From: a virus
Virus record (IMG/VR): IMGVR_UViG_3300016484_001084
Coordinates: 1-50,869 of that record
Direction: 5' to 3' (one strand)
DNA length: 50,869 nt
A program made the position numbers and the translations under genes. This document shows positions 3,353 to 43,323 of this stretch, in pieces. The notes beneath the pieces are model-generated. The model was not told the origin of the DNA. It saw only the letters and a program-made list of their open reading frames with translations, and did not search any database. The first letter of the stretch is position 1. Each line of letters begins with the position of its first letter.

Positions 3353-4005
3353 AAACCTACCCCCTCCATCGTCTTCACCTCTACGCCTTTCTCGATCCTG
3401 CGGGCGGCAAGAAGATGGCGCTGAAAAAGGTCCGTGCGAACTCCGCCATCATCGTCATCGGCGTCGAACCGACCGCCCTCCAACGCATCTTTGTGCTTGA
3501 TGCTTGGCGTGGCCGTGACAGTGCCCCCCAGCTGATTCAGCGCGTCCTCGACACCAACGAACGGTGGCAACCCCGCCAGTTCGGCTGCGAAGCCAACGCG
3601 ATGCAGAGCCTCTTTACCGAGCTGGTGGAGCACGAAGCGATCAGACAAGAGAAGCACCTTCCGCTCGTCCCGGTCTACCAACCCACCAAAATCGACAAAG
3701 AATGGCGCGTGCGAGACGCGGTCCAGCCGGTCGTCGGCCACGGTCGACTCTTCATCCAGCAATCGCAGGTTGAGCTGATCAGCGAAATCACCAGTTTTCC
3801 GTTGGGCGAATATCGCGATATGATCGACGCGCTGGCGTCCGCGATCGCGATGGTGCCGCTACAAGCGCCGAGTGTACAACAGGACGCCGAACGCGAAGCC
3901 CTCGCCCGCTACTTGCGTCGGATTGGGTCAACCTCGACCGAGATTGAATCTCGCCTCGCCGCCTTCGATGCCGCTCGTGTAGAAACTGATTCGCTCCCCG
4001 CTTGA
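3349..4005 (+). CDS. terminase large subunit, RNase-H-fold nuclease part (separate ORF)
   Basis: LYAFLDPAGG...SAIIVIGVE...FVLDAW...FGCEANAMQ...FPLGEYRDMIDALASA are typical TerL C-terminal nuclease motifs. ATGA overlap with the previous ORF. Confidence 0.75.
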   Translation: MKTYPLHRLHLYAFLDPAGGKKMALKKVRANSAIIVIGVEPTALQRIFVLDAWRGRDSAPQLIQRVLDTNERWQPRQFGCEANAMQSLFTELVEHEAIRQEKHLPLVPVYQPTKIDKEWRVRDAVQPVVGHGRLFIQQSQVELISEITSFPLGEYRDMIDALASAIAMVPLQAPSVQQDAEREALARYLRRIGSTSTEIESRLAAFDAARVETDSLPA

Positions 4006-38174: not shown

Positions 38175-38363
38175 TTATCGCGAAAACGCGTTCGACCGCA
38201 TTTTGGCGGCTTTGATTTTTTGAGCAAACTGCGCTGCGTTAGCGAGTTTTCGTATACAGGCATTTCGAAGCGAAATCTCGATATTCCCCCACCAGCGCCG
38301 TTCACAGATCGGACACTGCCACCCGCTATGACTCGCTTCATGATATTTCTGACACGGCTGCAT
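38175..38363 (-). CDS. small Cys-containing zinc-binding-like protein
   Basis: MQPCQKYHEASHSGWQCPIC. Overlaps the polymerase 3' end. Confidence 0.4.
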   Translation of the reverse strand: MQPCQKYHEASHSGWQCPICERRWWGNIEISLRNACIRKLANAAQFAQKIKAAKMRSNAFSR

Positions 38364-41300
38364 CAAACACCTCCCGACTCGGCAACACCTTAAATTCCCG
38401 ATCCGCTTTCCATCGCTTGCCAATCGCGACTTCACAGGGAATGGTCAGCTCGGCCTTCCCATACAGCCTGGGCCGCTCCAGATGTTCCACGAGGAACTTG
38501 GCTACGTCATAGGCGCGTTCAGGGATCACCGAGATAAACACCCCATCGTGCACATGCACATTCAACCGTCCCCAGTCTGGGTGCTCCTCAAACAAGGCCA
38601 TGAGCGGTTTGAATCCCCACTGGTTCATCCAACGGGCCACCTCGGGTTGCATGCGGGTTGAGCAGGCTTCCCGAAAGGTGGCGTCATCCATCCGCTCGTG
38701 GCTGAAATCGTAGCGACCGCCCCAGGTGTCGTAGAGGACCTTGTTGCGTTGGACATCTCGCTTGACCCAGGCAAAGAACTCGTCGAGGGGCACCACGGAC
38801 CGATACGCGGCAATCGCCTTGTCACATTCAGCCGGGTCCAGCACAATGCCTCGTTTGGCAGCGTTGTCAGACATCGTTTGGCCTTGCATCATCCGTTGGG
38901 CACCGTGCACCACCGTTTTGGCAAAGTAGCGTTCGGCTTTGGTGATCTCCTGCTTCTTCAAGATCCGCCGCGCATTGTCGGTGTGCATGTCATAGACATC
39001 AGGCCGCGCGTTGGCTTCGACAATCAACTGTTCCTTCCCAGTCAAATGATACATCCACGCCAAGCACACCCGACCCTCGGCCTGACTGCCGTCCACCTGC
39101 AACCCGATACAGCCAGGATCGGCCATAAACATATCCCGGCTCTCGCGGTCCACGTTCTGGCCGTTGCTGCCGCTGCCGTCGTAGTAGGCCTTACTGTTCA
39201 ATCGGCCTTCCTTCGTGTTGAGGTTATAGCTGCTCCTGAACCGCCCATCCGCACTGATGCGCTTATCGTCATAGAACTCGCGCAACTTGGCCACCCGCTC
39301 TGACCGCAGTAGGAGCGGCGCGACAGCCTCAAAGTGCCGCCGTGCCGCCCGCACCTCGGGAGACACCAGCGGGGCCGCTTGATGATGCGACAGCAGCTTG
39401 CGAATCGCGAGGGCATCAGAACTGACTGTTTTCTCGTGAGTGCTCCGTTTTCGAAGTTGTTGGGGGAACTTCAGGGTGTCGTACAACCAGGCCTTAACCT
39501 TCTTGCCGCTCAGCTTCTTCTTGGCAAAGAGGTCTACCCCGTACGCTTGAATGTGTGCCTTGATCTGCTCCAACTCAGCTGCTAGCTCATGCTTCCGTCT
39601 GACCCGTTGGGCATCATCGATTGCGATCCCGGTGTGTGCCAACCGAAACAACGGCCCCAGCATCTCGGCGTACTGTTCCCAGTACCAGTCCAGGCCGTTG
39701 ATTTGCTGCCCGTCGCCGGTTTCGCGGGTCTGCGCCTCCAACCGGCTGTAGTACAGATCCAGCAACTCGCGCTGGACACAGCAATCCTTGCCGTTATAGG
39801 TCAAGAACGCCGCCATGTTGCTGGTGTACTTGCGCTGATCTTCGGGATCTTTGGCTTCATGCTTCCAAAACGGCTCGCGAGTATCCACCGACGCACAAAA
39901 GTCCAGCCGGTGCTCTGAGGTCGGATCCAGCGCGTGATGCATCAGCATGGTATCCCAGACCAGGTTGGGCAGGTCCAGCTTGCGTTCGACCTGAAACCAG
40001 TACCGTTCGTGAAAGACGTTGTGAGCTGAGCAGCACAACTTGGCCAGTTCGTCGACCAGCGACCAGACTATCCCCAGCTTGTCCTCATCCTTCCAGTAGC
40101 TCTTGGTCGTCGGGATGGTCAACGACACTGCGGGATCCTTACTAAACCCTACACAGACGATGGGTGCGACCAGCGGTGGGCCTTTTTTCTCAAGGGGGTT
40201 TTCGATATCCACCACCAGTCGCAGCTGCTCCCCTTCGCGTCGGCAGTCGGCCAGGTAGTCTTCAATATCGTGCACGGATGGGCTGATGTAGTGGGTCCGC
40301 ACCGGCAAATTCATCGCCTTGCTGTGCCGTTCCTCCGCAATGCGTGCCCAGTCGCGCCGACAAAGCGCCTCGTAGCTGGAGGTCCGGAAGGTGGCGGCTG
40401 GGTGAATGGTTGGAATCACCTTGATCAGCCGCCCGCGCCGATCTCGGTAGCTCAGAATGCTGCCTCGCCAATCGGTGATGCCCGGTCGTGAGGTTTTGCC
40501 GTCTGACTTGTGCCAGTGCACATTGCCCTTGCCGGTCAACGCATACAGGCTGTAGTTCCCCGTCGGTACAATCAGATAGGGATCCTCCAGATTGGCCAAC
40601 CGCTGGTGCAAATCCTCCATCCAGCTTTCCCAGGTTGGCTGATCCCAGGCGTCGGCCTTGTTGCCAGGCGGACGAAACTCGCAGTTGTGCACGGCAAAAC
40701 CTTCAACGATGTAGGTATGCGTATCCGTTTCGATGTCAACAACTTCGCGTTCGCCCAGCTCATTTTTTTCTTCTATCCGCACAGAAGGAAGACGTATCAC
40801 AGGCGGATCATTCAGCAGCGTTTCTAGTCTGTTCAAAAGCCGTTGCGGTCTGACTTCTCCTAAAAACCGTAGAGCTTGATTCACACCACCTTGCACACGT
40901 AGGCGCACAATGCGCTTTTTTTCGCTCTTTGTGACACCAACCGTATAACCCAGCTGTTCCATTGCTGCTTGCGTCTCGCGTAAAACCACTCCAGGATTCT
41001 GTGCCATCGCAACCATAAAATGTCGCTTCGCTCTGACCGCACTCTGAACAGAGATGAACCCCTCGCCATCAAAAATACCACGCAAATAGCCATGCTCTTC
41101 TCTTCTCTGTTCGTTCCACGGTTTCAGCGCCATGGTGAGATAGGAATGACCTGCTCTTGCTTGATCCGCTCGCATCCAATGTAGCGATGCGTTACGTCTT
41201 TGTGTTCCCGCTAAAAAACGGTGATCGCCCGTCATTGCAATGCTGCCTTCAATTGTCTGCAAGAGCAGGCACGGCTTTCGAGTTGTTTTTTTGTTTGTCA

Positions 41301-41631
41301 CTGTCGCTATTCGCCACTTTCTCAACGCCTGCCCTCGTGTTTTTCCGTACTCGTCGAAAGCCAGTACACGATCACCTATGTGTACATCGCAAATCGGACG
41401 CCATGTTAAATCAGCCATCAATACACGCTGCGATGCTTCAATGCACACATTCTCGATTCTGAAATCACGGCGGTTCAATCCCACCGCTTCCCACCATACC
41501 CGTAGCTTTTGGTGATAGCTCGGCCCGACAAACGGCTCGCCCACCGCTTCCTCGCGAGGGCCGGGAGCTTCCCCCACCAGGACCAGCTTGCTGTCAAGCC
41601 TCCCCCAACCTGGTACTCGTAGTTCGCTCAT
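38338..41631 (-). CDS. family-4 UDG-like domain fused to family A DNA polymerase, interrupted by an intein
   Basis: UDG motifs LVGEAPGPREEAVGEPFVG and PTIHPAATFR. Exo motif VVDIEN. Pol motifs VDGSQAEGR, RYFAKTVVHG, VHVHDG. ATG 41631 (TGATG overlap). Confidence 0.8.
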   Translation of the reverse strand: MSELRVPGWGRLDSKLVLVGEAPGPREEAVGEPFVGPSYHQKLRVWWEAVGLNRRDFRIENVCIEASQRVLMADLTWRPICDVHIGDRVLAFDEYGKTRGQALRKWRIATVTNKKTTRKPCLLLQTIEGSIAMTGDHRFLAGTQRRNASLHWMRADQARAGHSYLTMALKPWNEQRREEHGYLRGIFDGEGFISVQSAVRAKRHFMVAMAQNPGVVLRETQAAMEQLGYTVGVTKSEKKRIVRLRVQGGVNQALRFLGEVRPQRLLNRLETLLNDPPVIRLPSVRIEEKNELGEREVVDIETDTHTYIVEGFAVHNCEFRPPGNKADAWDQPTWESWMEDLHQRLANLEDPYLIVPTGNYSLYALTGKGNVHWHKSDGKTSRPGITDWRGSILSYRDRRGRLIKVIPTIHPAATFRTSSYEALCRRDWARIAEERHSKAMNLPVRTHYISPSVHDIEDYLADCRREGEQLRLVVDIENPLEKKGPPLVAPIVCVGFSKDPAVSLTIPTTKSYWKDEDKLGIVWSLVDELAKLCCSAHNVFHERYWFQVERKLDLPNLVWDTMLMHHALDPTSEHRLDFCASVDTREPFWKHEAKDPEDQRKYTSNMAAFLTYNGKDCCVQRELLDLYYSRLEAQTRETGDGQQINGLDWYWEQYAEMLGPLFRLAHTGIAIDDAQRVRRKHELAAELEQIKAHIQAYGVDLFAKKKLSGKKVKAWLYDTLKFPQQLRKRSTHEKTVSSDALAIRKLLSHHQAAPLVSPEVRAARRHFEAVAPLLLRSERVAKLREFYDDKRISADGRFRSSYNLNTKEGRLNSKAYYDGSGSNGQNVDRESRDMFMADPGCIGLQVDGSQAEGRVCLAWMYHLTGKEQLIVEANARPDVYDMHTDNARRILKKQEITKAERYFAKTVVHGAQRMMQGQTMSDNAAKRGIVLDPAECDKAIAAYRSVVPLDEFFAWVKRDVQRNKVLYDTWGGRYDFSHERMDDATFREACSTRMQPEVARWMNQWGFKPLMALFEEHPDWGRLNVHVHDGVFISVIPERAYDVAKFLVEHLERPRLYGKAELTIPCEVAIGKRWKADREFKVLPSREVFDAAVSEIS
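40684..41445 (-). mobile_element. intein (254 aa) within the UDG-like domain of the polymerase
   Basis: Starts CIEASQRVLMADL (block A), has TGDHRF (block B) and a LAGLIDADG-like YLRGIFDGEGF, ends IVEGFAVHN followed by +1 Cys. The flanks rejoin into the UDG motif ENV/CEFRPPGN. Confidence 0.8.
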
Positions 41632-41861
41632 CAGCTCAACACCTTCGTTCCGCGGTAGTGGTCCGGTCGTGCGTCCCACTTCGCTTCTTGATGATGGCGA
41701 CTCATATACTTCCGGCACTCCACACAGGTCTCGTGCGGCAATCGTCCGCACTCCATGCAGTGCTTTTGGGCACACCGCGCATGCATGGTTTCCGTCGAAA
41801 ACACACTCTCTGCTTGACACCATTCACAGTACAATCGGCTCTCTCGCTCGTTGAGTCGCAT
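41631..41861 (-). CDS. multi-CxxC zinc-finger protein
   Basis: CEWC...C....CMEC....CVEC. 76 aa, TGATG overlaps at both ends. Confidence 0.55.
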   Translation of the reverse strand: MRLNERESRLYCEWCQAESVFSTETMHARCAQKHCMECGRLPHETCVECRKYMSRHHQEAKWDARPDHYRGTKVLS

Positions 41862-42505
41862 CACCGCACCCCCAAGGTTTCGTCGTAGTAAAACTCAATT
41901 CCAGGAATCGGGCTGGGCTTGTCGCCGTAGCTTCGTCGGAGCTTGCCGATCGCCGCCTCGTTCAGCACCCAGCACTCGATAATTTCACCATCTACTTTGA
42001 TTTCGAGCGGGATCAGCTCTTCGTTCACCACCCGGTATTTTGGTACCTTGCGGACTGTACTCGTCCCACGATCGGTCGCCCATCCCTTCGCCTGTTCAAC
42101 CACAGGTTGAGGCGGCATGACCGGCATCGGCGGTGGCGGTGGTTGATTCGCTTTCCTTGCTGCCTCTTCCTTTGCGCGCTGCTGCCGCCTTAGTTCTTCT
42201 TGTGCTTGTTGTGCGGCTCGCTTTCCTTCTTCAAGCCGTTTTGCTTCGGCAGCTCGCCACGCCAAAATCGCGCTTTGTGTTTGTTGCTCGGCTTTTTTCA
42301 ACGGATCGATCACCAGCGCGAATTCGGCCTTCAATCGAGTCAGCCCCTCCTGAAACGGGCGCTTCATTTCATCAAACTTTTCCTCAGCAGCTTTACGAGC
42401 TTTGCGGAGGACAATCAGGTTGGCGGTTTCTTGGCCTTCGTCGTCCTCGGATTGCACGATCACCTGATTACGTGTGATCAATTGTGTCGTCGTCGGTTCT
42501 GTCAT
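41861..42505 (-). CDS. hypothetical protein with central charged coiled coil and poly-Pro linker
   Basis: 214 aa. Purine-rich RBS (GAAGGGGGGG). Confidence 0.55.
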   Translation of the reverse strand: MTEPTTTQLITRNQVIVQSEDDEGQETANLIVLRKARKAAEEKFDEMKRPFQEGLTRLKAEFALVIDPLKKAEQQTQSAILAWRAAEAKRLEEGKRAAQQAQEELRRQQRAKEEAARKANQPPPPPMPVMPPQPVVEQAKGWATDRGTSTVRKVPKYRVVNEELIPLEIKVDGEIIECWVLNEAAIGKLRRSYGDKPSPIPGIEFYYDETLGVR

Positions 42506-42532
42506 CGCCCCCCCCCCTTCCTGTTAAAAAGT

Positions 42533-42590
42533 GCCGTCTCGAGGATTCAAACCTCGTGCCCAGCGACCAGCTGGATCCGTGTCCGACGGC
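42533..42590 (-). ncRNA. tRNA-like element 2 (acceptor-like stem, anticodon-arm-like and T-arm-like hairpins, no D-arm)
   Basis: GCCGTC/GACGGC stem. TCCAG-CTGGTCG-CTGGG and CGAGG-TTTGAAT-CCTCG hairpins. Followed by AC + TTTTT. Confidence 0.35.
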
Positions 42591-42633
42591 GAGACACCCG
42601 GGAGTCGAACCCGGTTTCTTGGTTTACTGTCTC
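42591..42633 (-). ncRNA. tRNA-like element 1 (acceptor-like stem plus canonical T-arm minihelix)
   Basis: GAGACA/TGTCTC stem enclosing CCGGG-TTCGACT-CCCGG. Confidence 0.35.
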
Positions 42634-42634
42634 C

Positions 42635-43300
42635 TTACTTCCCCAACCGCCTCATGGCTGGTCGAGTCGGCGGTGCGGTTGTCGCGGCCTGCTGTGGAGC
42701 CGGTGCCGCCTGTGCCGCTGCTGGTCGTGGTCCTGCCGTTGGCGCGGTCGTCCGTGGAGCCGCCGTGCTCGCTGCCGCCGCAGCTTCCGGTGCCAACGCC
42801 GGTTCGACTTCACCCGGCGAGAACCAGCGTTCAGCCCGAGCGTTCATGAGCTGGCTACCGTCATCACGCAACATCGGCTTGCCGTCCTTGATCGCGCCCT
42901 GATGCACGATCTTGCCGATGATGTGCTTGCCCTTGATTTCGTTCAAGCACTGCTCGATGTCAGCACCCTCCAAGTTAATCCCGTACTTGCTCAGGTACCG
43001 CTTGAGCCCACCAGACCGGGCCTTCAACGTCTCAGGATTGTTGGCTTCGGGATCGGCTTGCAGCTTGCCGTCTCGCACCGCCTTCGCGTTCTCGTTCACT
43101 CCGATAAAGAACGCTTCCTTGTGCTCGACACCTGCCACACTGGCCGGTTCGATGGCGCGGTGGAGGATTTCGATCCCGTACACCTCTTCCCCTTGCTTGC
43201 CGACCCAGGCTTCGGCGGCATCCGCCACCTCAAACAAAAGGGTGCCTGCTGGACACATCTCGAACAAATCCTTGATCTCTGTTGGGAATATTTTTCCCAT
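42635..43300 (-). CDS. candidate ssDNA-binding protein (DUF669-like) with Ala/Pro-rich tail
   Basis: ATG 43300 with GGAG RBS. Sits next to the Sak4-like ATPase as in known Sak4-SSB pairs. No motif-level proof. Confidence 0.35.
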   Translation of the reverse strand: MGKIFPTEIKDLFEMCPAGTLLFEVADAAEAWVGKQGEEVYGIEILHRAIEPASVAGVEHKEAFFIGVNENAKAVRDGKLQADPEANNPETLKARSGGLKRYLSKYGINLEGADIEQCLNEIKGKHIIGKIVHQGAIKDGKPMLRDDGSQLMNARAERWFSPGEVEPALAPEAAAAASTAAPRTTAPTAGPRPAAAQAAPAPQQAATTAPPTRPAMRRLGK

Positions 43301-43323
43301 AACCACACTCCTTTTCGGCCAAT

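What the first reader, a model, noticed from the sequence alone, without database searches (positions are those of the whole stretch)
42526..42634. Two tandem tRNA-like minihelices in an intergenic gap of the replication arm
This is the only large gap (129 nt) inside the leftward replication operon. On the minus strand it folds by eye into two adjacent self-contained elements. Element 1 (42633 down to 42591) is a 6-bp stem GAGACA/TGTCTC. It encloses a 13-nt linker and a perfect 5-bp stem with 7-nt loop, CCGGG-TTCGACT-CCCGG, which is a textbook tRNA T-arm with a TTCGA loop. Element 2 (42590 down to 42533) is a 6-bp stem GCCGTC/GACGGC. It encloses 8 unpaired nt, an anticodon-arm-like hairpin TCCAG-CTGGTCG-CTGGG (U at position 33, GGU in the anticodon position), 2 nt, and a T-arm-like CGAGG-TTTGAAT-CCTCG. 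It is followed by AC and TTTTT. Neither element has a D-arm, both have one extra nucleotide between the T-stem and the acceptor strand, and they are only about 43 and 58 nt long, so they are not canonical tRNAs. A complementary 6-mer closing each T-arm within a short window is unlikely to occur twice by chance. Possible roles are all inference. They could be RNase P/RNase Z processing signals splitting the polycistronic mRNA. They could be substrates for the CCA-adding enzyme. They could be decoys for tRNA-targeting host defence nucleases. They could be decayed tRNA genes doubling as a terminator.
Basis: partly seen in the sequence, partly recalled or inferred. Interest (0 to 1): 0.7.

Follow-up and report, generated by a model that had tools for sequence, protein, structure and literature searches.

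The report
Phage tRNA-like double T-arm pseudoknot RNA
The gap holds one conserved, about 88-nt folded RNA built from two tRNA-type T-arms tied together by a pseudoknot; it belongs to a small family of phage intergenic RNAs that matches no Rfam family, and it probably marks a processing or stability boundary in the replication-gene transcript.

Summary

**What it is.** Four further phage lineages from metagenomes carry the same element. Covariation across them supports five helices:
- T-arm 1
- a 5-bp helix S1 (GUGUC/GACAC)
- a 6–7-bp acceptor-like helix S2
- a hairpin H with a UGGUA-type loop
- T-arm 2

S1 and S2 cross, so this is one pseudoknotted module, not two self-contained minihelices. 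It is confined to the window's own clade and decays there.

**What it is not.** It is not a canonical tRNA, a tmRNA or any Rfam family; the best Rfam hit is mascRNA at 19 bits against a threshold of 42.5.

**Context.** In two lineages it directly follows a DUF669-type SSB gene. The element is 86% identical between those lineages, although BLASTP finds no significant similarity between the flanking proteins. Closer relatives carry a plain GC-rich hairpin in the same slot, and the downstream gene varies.

**Best reading (inferred, about 0.4).** It is a swappable intercistronic module that mimics tRNA, so that host tRNA-end enzymes cut or stabilise the polycistronic mRNA. A trans-acting tRNA decoy remains possible.

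**Verdict.** A new variant of tRNA-like RNA, of moderate-to-high interest.

The parts
42598..42614 (-). T-arm 1: stem CCGGG / loop UUCGACU / stem CCCGG
   Evidence: Sequence. Strict T-arm scan. The middle pair covaries: GC, AU, CG and UG in 7 sequences, 100% paired.
42593..42597 (-). S1a (GUGUC), 5' strand of pseudoknot helix S1, directly contiguous with the 3' strand of T-stem 1
   Evidence: Pairs with 42579-42583. 4 of 5 pairs change on both sides across lineages: GUGUC/GACAC, GUGUG/CACAU, AGAUG/CAUCU, UCGUG/CACGA.
42591..42592 (-). L1 (UC), a 2-nt pyrimidine loop linking S1a to S2a; in an H-type pseudoknot it would cross the deep groove of S2
   Evidence: UC in window, L002, L008, L077 and L127; UU in L111. 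The geometry is inference.
42585..42590 (-). S2a (GCCGUC), 5' strand of the acceptor-like helix S2; it lies inside the loop closed by S1
   Evidence: Pairs with 42533-42538. 5 of 7 alignment pairs change on both sides, 93% paired. Also predicted by RNAalifold.
42584..42584 (-). L2, a single G between S2a and S1b; faces A42539 (possible G.A pair at the 7:66 position)
   Evidence: G here and A at the partner position in window, L002, L008, L077, L127 and L111. The pairing itself is inference.
42579..42583 (-). S1b (GACAC), 3' strand of pseudoknot helix S1
   Evidence: helix 2.
42559..42575 (-). Hairpin H: UCCAGC / UGGUC / GCUGGG. The loop reads UGGUA in L077, L127 and L111, which resembles both a tRNA D-loop and a GGU anticodon loop.
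   Evidence: Stem covaries (4 pairs with changes on both sides). Loop variants UGGUC, GGGUA, UGGUA, GGAGCA.
42540..42556 (-). T-arm 2: stem CGAGG / loop UUUGAAU / stem CCUCG
   Evidence: 3 of 5 pairs covary, 100% paired. L008 shows the G.U intermediate between the A-U (window) and G-C (L002) states.
42539..42539 (-). Single A between T-stem 2 and S2b
   Evidence: Present in all 7 sequences; it was a required base of the search pattern only, which returned no member.
42533..42538 (-). S2b (GACGGC), 3' strand of the acceptor-like helix
42526..42532 (-). 3' tail AC + UUUUU. A is in the discriminator position; no CCA is encoded.
   Evidence: The U-run is present only in window, L008 and L002, not in L077, L127 or L111. 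No terminator is called on this strand.
42628..42633 (-). It is a lineage-specific alternative pairing partner that competes with S1, not part of the conserved module.
   Evidence: Decays to UAGACA (L008) and UAGAUA+GUAA (L002). No 6/6 complement within 40 nt upstream in the other lineages.
42635..43306 (-). Upstream gene, 223 aa, DUF669-type SSB-like protein; the element starts 20 nt after its stop codon
   Evidence: No Pfam or PHROG hit. The AlphaFold model (pLDDT 68) matches DUF669 phage proteins, PrgE and SsbA.
41861..42505 (-). Downstream gene, 214 aa (variable: absent in L002 and L008), preceded by a G10 run/RBS at 42508-42517

Best explanation
**What it is (shown).** Window 42533-42614 (minus strand) encodes one compact RNA module. 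Its order is: T-arm 1, S1a, UC, S2a, G, S1b, GGA, hairpin H, CA, T-arm 2, A, S2b, then a short tail.
- S1 and S2 cross, which makes an H-type pseudoknot.
- T-stem 1 runs straight into S1.
- T-stem 2 runs into S2 across a G/A juxtaposition, giving a 12-layer acceptor/T-type stack like that of a tRNA.
- The module belongs to a small family found in intercistronic spacers of uncultured phages.

**How it most likely works (inferred).** It acts in cis on the polycistronic replication/recombination transcript as a swappable 'punctuation' cassette.
- It occupies the slot that holds a plain stable GC-rich hairpin in related phages, right after the abundantly needed SSB gene.
- Because it mimics the acceptor/T-arm half of a tRNA, host tRNA-end enzymes would recognise it: RNase P at the 5' side of S2, and RNase Z or 3' exonucleases at the 3' side.
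- That would separate the upstream SSB message, left with a T-arm 1 hairpin at its 3' end, from the downstream and more variable genes, and so set their relative stability and expression.
For: **Structure**
- 93.6% of pair cells are standard pairs, against 34-54% when partners are slid by 1-3 columns. 17 of 28 pairs change on both sides, and 0 of 500 shuffles reach the observed values.
- RNAalifold independently recovers T-arm 1, S2, H and T-arm 2.
- S1 is fully complementary with different sequences in four lineages. By eye it also forms in L186, shifted by one column relative to the alignment.
- G.U pairs occur only on the gene-sense strand.

**Discrete family**
- Members score 71-106 bits with the covariance model. 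The next best hits score 37 bits or less in about 1.3 Mb of tRNA-rich loci, and 10.6 bits in the window.

**Slot logic**
- In the window lineage, relatives with 56-63% identical SSB carry only a GC-rich hairpin there: L003, L007, L009 and L001, with fold energies of the whole intergenic gap of -28 to -57 kcal/mol.
- In the L077 lineage, relatives with 60-90% identical SSB carry a hairpin (L190, L195, L199) or another branched structure (L198, L200).
- None of these has a clear U-tract.

**Position**
- The element always lies 7-20 nt after a stop codon and 13-27 nt before a start codon, on the sense strand.
- Within the window clade the upstream gene is constant, while the downstream gene is different in each of the three (214 aa, 76 aa, DNA polymerase).

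**tRNA mimicry**
- Both T-arms match the tRNA consensus (G53-C61 closing pair, UUCGA/UUUGA loop).
- S2(6) + G.A + T-stem(5) = 12 layers.
- The mascRNA model is the only Rfam hit, though far below threshold. ARAGORN's mitochondrial mode calls a tRNA.
Against: - There is no expression, end-mapping or cleavage data; every functional step is inference.
- The pseudoknot pairs the leader (S1a) with the body and places the would-be RNase P site in the 2-nt loop L1, which could hinder rather than help cleavage.
- No 3' CCA is encoded.
- A plain hairpin would suffice as a 3' exonuclease barrier, so stability alone does not explain two conserved T-loops and a pseudoknot.
- In L111, L127 and L186 the neighbouring genes are small unknown ORFs, not SSB.
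- The T-loop sequences of L077, L127, L111 and L186 were required by the search patterns, so their conservation outside the window clade is by construction.
Confidence: 0.4

Rival explanations
1. Trans-acting tRNA mimic. The module is excised from the mRNA by tRNA-processing enzymes, perhaps receives CCA, and accumulates as a small RNA. That RNA would titrate or inhibit a tRNA-binding factor, for example a tRNA-targeting anti-phage nuclease or toxin, a modification enzyme or a synthetase.
For: - Near-perfect tRNA-type T-arms and a 12-layer acceptor/T stack.
- The H loop reads C-UGGUA-G in three lineages, i.e. a U33-GGU-A37-like anticodon loop.
- The element is 86% identical between the window and L077, while BLASTP finds no significant similarity between their flanking proteins. 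This fits a horizontally exchanged accessory cassette.
- Presence/absence differs between close relatives, as is typical of counter-defence genes.
Against: - No promoter-like site lies upstream.
- There is one copy per genome.
- The H closing C-G pair is conserved, so the loop is more likely 5 nt than an anticodon-like 7 nt, and L002 has G at the 'U33' position.
- Plain hairpins fill the same slot in relatives.
- The papers searched describe no phage tRNA-like decoy RNA.
Confidence: 0.2
2. Cis-regulatory operator or attenuator. The fold is bound by a phage or host protein (for example the adjacent SSB, by analogy with T4 gp32 and its mRNA pseudoknot), or it switches between the S1 form and the GAGACA-stem form, to control translation or read-through into the next gene.
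For: - It sits 13-27 nt upstream of the next start codon.
- It follows an SSB gene in two lineages.
- Mutually exclusive pairings exist in the window (GAGACA/UGUCUC against S1).
- A U5 tract follows the element in the window clade.
Against: - The downstream gene differs among three near-identical copies.
- The alternative stem and the U-tract are not conserved outside the window clade.
- The ribosome-binding site is not sequestered in the conserved fold.
- The three other contexts lack an identifiable SSB.
Confidence: 0.15
3. DNA-level element: strand-specific hairpins in single-stranded DNA that serve replication or recombination (an origin or primosome-loading signal) within the replication module.
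For: It lies in the exonuclease-Sak4-SSB-polymerase block. Covariation alone cannot tell RNA from single-stranded DNA.
Against: - The T-loop sequences are the RNA (tRNA) consensus.
- Several G.U pairs are tolerated.
- The element also occurs in contexts with no visible replication genes.
- It always has the orientation of the flanking genes in the contexts where gene orientation is clear (window, L002, L008, L077, L111).
Confidence: 0.05
4. Non-functional remnants: two decayed tRNA genes, or tRNA 3'-end copies left by an integration (att) site.
For: The T-arms look tRNA-derived. The metagenome scan returned many true att-type tRNA 3'-end duplications.
Against: - 17 pairs keep pairing through changes on both sides, including S1, which has no counterpart in a tRNA.
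- None of the ten replication-arm proteins scanned hits an integrase family.
- No CCA is present, and there is no acceptor 5' strand for T-arm 1.
- The element is conserved across lineages whose proteins have diverged beyond BLASTP detection.
Confidence: 0.04

Closest known systems
mascRNA / MEN-beta tRNA-like small RNAs (Rfam RF01684) at the 3' end of MALAT1
   Same: The 58-nt part S2a to S2b has the same plan: 7-layer acceptor-like stem, short linker instead of a D-arm, small inner hairpin, canonical T-arm, no encoded CCA, embedded in a longer transcript. It is the only Rfam model that aligns at all. In the known system (established knowledge), RNase P cleavage at the tRNA-like element creates the 3' end of the upstream RNA, which is the mechanism proposed here.
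   Different: The score is 19 bits against a gathering threshold of 42.5, so it is not a member. mascRNA is vertebrate and nuclear. Here the leader is tied to the body by pseudoknot helix S1, and a second T-arm precedes it; the upstream 3'-end protector would be a T-arm hairpin, not a triple helix.
Pseudoknotted tRNA-like structures at the 3' ends of plant RNA viruses (TYMV-type TLS)
   Same: The strand order is the same: T-arm, S1a, short loop, S2a, S1b, S2b, 3' tail. That is, an acceptor-type arm built from an H-type pseudoknot stacked on a T-stem (my own knowledge of TYMV). RNase P can cleave pseudoknot substrates in loop 1 (abstract of PMC12710915).
   Different: No Rfam TLS family matches. 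The stack T1+S1+S2 is 16-17 bp, not 12. Loop 3 carries two extra hairpins, including a second T-arm. The element is internal to a DNA-phage operon transcript, has no CCA, and aminoacylation is unknown.
Canonical and D-armless (mitochondrial-type) tRNAs
   Same: T-arm sequence and geometry, a 12-layer acceptor/T stack, and an inner hairpin that can be read as a GGU anticodon loop. ARAGORN in -mt mode reports a 68-nt 'tRNA-Thr(GGU)' at 42531-42598.
   Different: ARAGORN default and the Rfam tRNA model find nothing. The acceptor stem ARAGORN uses shows no covariation (67% paired, equal to shuffles). There is no D-arm, the variable region is 2 nt, L002 has G at position 33, and the loop-closing C-G pair is conserved.
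tRNA punctuation and plant-mitochondrial 't-elements' (tRNA-like structures that direct RNase P/Z cleavage of mRNAs)
   Same: A tRNA-like fold placed between or after coding regions in a polycistronic transcript, with no decoding role (established knowledge). The position is intercistronic and on the sense strand.
   Different: Those are organellar systems. Processing here is untested, and the double T-arm pseudoknot architecture has no described counterpart there.
Intercistronic stabiliser hairpins / REP-like 3' barriers in bacterial and phage operons
   Same: It occupies the slot that holds a simple 10-16-bp GC-rich stem-loop without a U-tract in related phages.
   Different: It is far more elaborate: five helices, two T-loops and a pseudoknot, conserved across unrelated phage backbones.

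Membership tests
Canonical tRNA | Detected by tRNA gene finders or the Rfam tRNA model | tested here: not met
   ARAGORN default finds 0 genes in the window. The Rfam E<=10 scan gives no tRNA hit.
Canonical tRNA | Cloverleaf with a D-arm, a 7-nt anticodon loop with U33, and a 4-5-nt or long variable region | tested here: not met
   There is no D-arm. The variable region is 2 nt. L002 has G at the U33 position, and the loop-closing C-G pair is conserved, giving a 5-nt loop.
D-armless / mitochondrial-type tRNA | Call by a mitochondrial tRNA model whose acceptor stem is maintained in relatives | tested here: not met
   ARAGORN -mt calls mtRNA-Thr(ggt) at 42531-42598, but its acceptor pairing is 67% paired, no better than shuffles, with one compensatory cell.
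mascRNA-menRNA (RF01684) | Score at or above the Rfam gathering threshold (42.5 bits) | tested here: not met
   19 bits, E = 0.36; the same in L008.
tmRNA | tRNA-like domain plus tag reading frame, detected by ARAGORN | tested here: not met
   ARAGORN tmRNA search finds none.
Any Rfam 15 family | Covariance-model match | tested here: not met
   Only sub-threshold chance-level hits for the window element and for L008, L111, L117 and L127.
T-loop motif (tRNA T-arm type) | 5-bp stem closed by G-C, with a 7-nt loop U-U-Y-R-A-N-N | tested here: met
   Both arms fit and the stems covary. The 3D T-loop fold and any m5U/pseudouridine modification cannot be tested here.
H-type pseudoknot | Two helices with crossing strands, each supported, and sterically possible loops | tested here: met
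   S1 has 4 of 5 and S2 has 5 of 7 pairs with changes on both sides. L1 is 2 nt across a 6-7-bp S2, L2 is 1 nt, and L3 is long. Whether both helices form at once, rather than alternately, cannot be tested here.
Intrinsic (Rho-independent) terminator | GC-rich hairpin immediately followed by a U-tract, conserved | tested here: not met
   No call on the minus strand. U5 occurs only in the window clade and lies 9 nt from the last hairpin.
Viral aminoacylatable TLS | 3'-terminal CCA and charging by an aminoacyl-tRNA synthetase | not testable with these tools
   No CCA is encoded. Charging would need biochemistry.
tRNA-punctuation / t-element type processing signal | Cleavage by RNase P at the 5' side and RNase Z at the 3' side in vivo | not testable with these tools
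   Only the positional analogy and the 12-layer acceptor/T stack are shown.
tRNA-gene att site remnant | Copy of a tRNA 3' end next to an integrase | tested here: not met
   No integrase family among the 10 replication-arm proteins scanned. The region after T-arm 1 pairs downstream (S1) rather than mirroring a tRNA acceptor/CCA end.

The most novel reading that the evidence does not exclude
The module is a horizontally mobile phage RNA gene. Host RNase P/Z would cut it out of the operon transcript, it might receive CCA, and the resulting two-T-arm pseudoknotted tRNA mimic would act in trans. It could act as a decoy or inhibitor for tRNA-directed anti-phage nucleases or toxins, or as a hijacker of a tRNA-binding enzyme. 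That would make it an RNA-only counter-defence or host-takeover factor of a new structural class.
Probability: 0.15. Interest if true: 0.85.

Novelty: new variant of a known kind. Interest (0 to 1): 0.6.

Why it matters
- tRNA-like folds that do not decode are well studied in plant RNA viruses, vertebrate lncRNAs and organelles; I found none described in the interior of DNA-phage operons.
- This element is a compact, well-supported example with an unusual design: two T-arms locked by a pseudoknot.
- It moves between unrelated phage backbones and alternates with plain hairpins in one defined slot, after the SSB gene.
- If it recruits host tRNA-processing enzymes, phages would be using 'tRNA punctuation' to set the ratios of replication proteins.
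- If it acts in trans, it would be a new kind of RNA counter-defence.
- Either way it gives a small, testable RNA with clear mutational handles: S1, the G.A juxtaposition and the T-loops.

Tried and rejected
- **Thermodynamic significance.** z = -0.92, so it is uninformative. Single-sequence MFE folds of the seven members disagree with one another.
- **Close relatives among cultured phages.** blastn of the 1.6-kb region and tblastn of the Sak4-like protein against INPHARED gave no match. blastn of the element alone hit only T-arms of ordinary phage tRNAs.
- **Exact-junction patterns in IMG/VR.** No hit.
- **T-loop + UGGUA + T-loop pattern in IMG/VR.** 50 hits, none a member; they form a different, abundant class.
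- **GTDB genome scan.** Only 2 hits, both real tRNAs with downstream 3'-end copies, so I found no prophage or host copy.
- **Protein-guided IMG/VR scans.** They found one distant locus for the 214-aa gene (L001, no element) and nothing for either SSB family.
Rejected.
- **ARAGORN's alternative acceptor stem.** Rejected.
- **Terminator reading.** Rejected.
- **att-remnant reading.** Rejected.
- **Gene-specific riboswitch for the downstream gene.** Disfavoured, because three near-identical copies precede three different genes.
- **Literature.** Searches for a described phage tRNA-like, T-loop or pseudoknot element found nothing matching. One catalogue of 10,006 unnamed viral candidate RNAs (PMC10690425) could contain it, and I could not check that.
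Full report
**1. The observation**

Three checks show the T-arms are not chance:
- A strict scan for tRNA-type T-arms (5-bp stem, loop UUYRANN) finds four hits in the whole window on both strands, against about one in shuffles. Two of them lie 58 nt apart on the same strand in this spacer.
Its energy (-39.2 kcal/mol) is not better than dinucleotide shuffles (z = -0.92), so folding energy alone says nothing here.
- ARAGORN in default mode finds no tRNA or tmRNA anywhere in the window. A permissive Rfam scan gives only a sub-threshold hit to the mascRNA model (19 bits against a 42.5-bit threshold) on 'element 2'.

**2. Relatives**

The 223-aa protein has eleven homologues in the large protein collection.
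- *The two closest contigs carry the element.* These are L008 (97% protein identity) and L002 (90%). Their substitutions fall as compensatory pairs in both T-stems: CCGGG/CCCGG becomes CCAGG/CCUGG, and CGAGG/CCUCG passes through the G.U intermediate CGGGG/CCUCG to CAGGG/CCCUG. The T-loops are unchanged.
- *More distant relatives have only a GC-rich stem-loop in the same spacer.* These share 56-63% identity (L003, L007, L009), plus L001.
- *A metagenome scan found four more lineages.* I searched for the two T-loop sequences 35-60 nt apart. Most hits were unrelated tRNA material, but L077/L117, L127, L111 and L099 (the same sequence as L186 in IMG/VR) carry the whole element.
- *A covariance model separates members cleanly.* Built from the seven distinct sequences, it scores members at 71-106 bits. 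The next best hits score 37 bits or less across about 1.3 Mb of tRNA-rich loci. The window has a single copy (106 bits; next hit 10.6 bits).
- *No copies in reference collections.* I found none in one representative genome per GTDB species, in cultured-phage records, or elsewhere in IMG/VR.

**3. The fold**

Across the five lineages, five helices keep pairing:

| Helix | Window sequence | Pairs changed on both sides | Cells paired |
|---|---|---|---|
| T-arm 1 | CCGGG / CCCGG | 1 of 5 | 100% |
| S1 | GUGUC / GACAC | 4 of 5 | 88.6% |
| S2 (acceptor-like) | GCCGUC / GACGGC | 5 of 7 | 93.0% |
| Hairpin H | UCCAGC / GCUGGG | 4 of 6 | 87.2% |
| T-arm 2 | CGAGG / CCUCG | 3 of 5 | 100% |

- Overall, 93.6% of pair cells are standard pairs, against 34-54% when partners are slid by 1-3 columns. 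17 of 28 pairs change on both sides, and no shuffle out of 500 reaches the observed values.
- RNAalifold independently predicts the four nested helices.
- S1 reads GUGUC/GACAC in the window, GUGUG/CACAU in L077, AGAUG/CAUCU in L127 and UCGUG/CACGA in L111. By eye it also forms in L186, offset by one column.
- S1 encloses the 5' strand of S2, so S1 and S2 cross and form an H-type pseudoknot. Its loops are sterically reasonable: 2 nt (UC or UU) across a 6-7-bp helix, one G between the helices, and a long third loop that carries hairpin H and T-arm 2.
- G.U pairs occur only on the gene-sense strand, so the folded molecule is the transcript (or that DNA strand).

**4. What fails**

It loses pairs without compensation in L008 and L002. 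In the other four lineages no 6/6 complement lies within 40 nt upstream. It is at most a clade-specific alternative pairing.
- *ARAGORN's tRNA call.* In mitochondrial or low-threshold mode ARAGORN calls a 68-nt 'tRNA-Thr(GGU)' at 42531-42598. The acceptor stem it needs is 67% paired, no better than shuffles.
- *The anticodon reading.* L002 has G where U33 should be, and the pair that closes the H loop is conserved. The anticodon-like reading is therefore weak, and UGGUA equally resembles a D-loop.
- *The terminator reading.* No terminator or promoter is called on this strand, and the U5 tract exists only in the window clade.
- *Rfam.* No family matches four other family members either (L008, L111, L117, L127).

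**5. What the anatomy resembles**

- T-stem 2 continues into S2 across a G/A juxtaposition present in six of the seven sequences. In the window this gives 5+1+6 = 12 stacked layers, the length of a tRNA acceptor/T arm that tRNA-end enzymes measure (established knowledge).
- T-stem 1 continues without a gap into S1.
- The strand order T-arm, S1a, loop, S2a, S1b, ..., S2b, tail is also that of the pseudoknotted acceptor arm of TYMV-type viral tRNA-like structures (my own knowledge). The stack here is longer, and no CCA is encoded.
- The 58-nt part from S2a to S2b has the plan of mascRNA.

**6. Context**

- *Gene order in the window.* PD-(D/E)XK exonuclease, AAA_24/Sak4-like protein, the 223-aa protein, the element, 214 aa, 77 aa, then a family-A DNA polymerase with a UDG-like domain.
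- *The 223-aa protein is SSB-like.* It has no sequence-family hit. Its predicted structure (pLDDT 68) matches DUF669 phage proteins (several named DUF669, one named single-stranded DNA-binding protein), PrgE and SsbA.
- *L077 has the same order and position.* There the order is exonuclease, AAA_24, a 126-aa DUF669 protein, then the element 7 nt after the stop codon.
- *The element is far better conserved than its flanks.* BLASTP finds no significant similarity between the window and L077 proteins, whereas the RNA elements are 85.7% identical. The element has therefore either moved between backbones or is under much stronger constraint than its neighbours.
- *Relatives of L077 fill the slot with something else.* With 60-90% identical SSB, they have a plain GC-rich hairpin (L190, L195, L199) or a different branched structure without T-loops (L198, L200).
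- *The downstream gene varies.* Within the window clade it is the 214-aa gene, a 76-aa gene or the polymerase itself, with the breakpoint at the ribosome-binding site/ATG.
- *Other contexts differ.* In L111, L127 and L186 the neighbours are small unknown ORFs.

**7. Interpretation**

*Shown.* This is one conserved pseudoknotted RNA module with two tRNA-type T-arms. It is intercistronic, on the sense strand and single-copy. It is exchangeable with simple hairpins and is shared by otherwise unrelated phages.

*Inferred (about 0.4).* It works in cis as a punctuation cassette. By mimicking the acceptor/T half of a tRNA it would draw RNase P and RNase Z or 3' exonucleases. That would separate and stabilise the upstream SSB message relative to the downstream genes.

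*Weaknesses.*
- There are no expression data.
- The pseudoknot may hide the RNase P site.
- A plain hairpin would be enough for mere stabilisation, so the T-loops probably add a function that is still unknown.

*Rivals.*

| Rival | Confidence |
|---|---|
| Trans-acting tRNA decoy or sponge | 0.20 |
| Protein-bound operator or attenuator | 0.15 |
| Single-stranded-DNA signal | 0.05 |
| Inert tRNA/att remnants (contradicted by covariation) | 0.04 |

*Caveat on conservation.* The T-loop sequences of four lineages were demanded by my search patterns. Only the window clade, found through its protein, gives unbiased evidence that the loops are conserved while the stems change.

**8. Novelty**

The element is not a tRNA, a tmRNA, a mascRNA or any Rfam 15 family, and the papers I could search describe nothing like it. 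A 2023 catalogue of about 10,000 unnamed viral candidate RNAs (PMC10690425) could include it, and I could not check that. I rate it a new variant of the known kind 'tRNA-like structured RNA', with an unusual double T-arm pseudoknot design and cassette-like behaviour.

Noticed in passing
window 40684-41445 (minus strand; residues 127-380 of the polymerase ORF 38338-41823): The family-A DNA polymerase carries a 254-aa intein-like insertion (starting CIEASQ..., ending ...VHN|C, with a LAGLIDADG-like 'LRGIFDGEGF' motif). It splits the N-terminal UDG-like domain. Relatives L002 (847 aa) and L001 (855 aa) lack it.
   Followed up: partly
window 41861-42505 and 41631-41864; L002 3801; L008 1292: A gene-content indel lies directly after the RNA element. 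The window has a 214-aa gene plus a 77-aa gene before the polymerase, L008 has only the 76-aa gene, and L002 goes straight to the polymerase. The shared sequence ends at the RBS/ATG (GGGGGAGCGATG). The long polymerase ORF in the window probably starts at the internal MSELRVPGWG (by comparison with L002).
   Followed up: partly
window 42508-42517: A run of ten G (minus strand) sits 2 nt upstream of the ATG of the 214-aa gene, where relatives have GGGGGAG. It may be an RBS with a slippage-prone homopolymer.
   Followed up: no
L198 1128-1226; L200 1967-2063: Relatives of the L077 phage carry a different branched structure in the same post-SSB slot: a 5' hairpin, then 'CCCGAG', then an 8-bp closing stem GCUGCC../..GGCAGC around two small hairpins. 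L198 keeps a UGGUA loop but has no T-loops. This may be a degenerate or sister form of the element.
   Followed up: partly
L133-L180 (IMG/VR), e.g. L143 4505-4566: An abundant, different class in viral contigs: a T-arm, about 30 nt, 'AGUAUGGUACUAUUG', then a second T-arm, apparently inside or next to tRNA-like genes. It scores only about 25 bits with the model of this element.
   Followed up: no
L038 2927-3022: By eye, a normal tRNA is followed directly by a ~58-nt mini tRNA-like unit (6-bp closing stem CUGGUU/AACCAG, small hairpin, T-arm with UUUGAAU loop). It is the best non-member hit of the model (36.6 bits) and may be an evolutionary source of 'element 2'.
   Followed up: no
window 3457-3473 and 11080-11096 (minus strand): Two other T-arm-like hairpins (GUCGG-UUCGACG-CCGAU and UCGAA-UUCAAUG-UUUGA) lie in the structural-gene half of the window. 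I did not map them to ORFs. Their number matches chance expectation, and neither has an acceptor-like closure.
   Followed up: partly
window 42635-43306 versus L077 2112-2492: The two SSB-like proteins upstream of the element show no BLASTP similarity (E = 19). Both nevertheless assign to the DUF669 type, one by predicted fold and the other by Pfam, and both follow an AAA_24/Sak4 gene. The window protein has a long Ala/Pro-rich disordered tail ending in a conserved basic RRLGK-type motif.
   Followed up: partly
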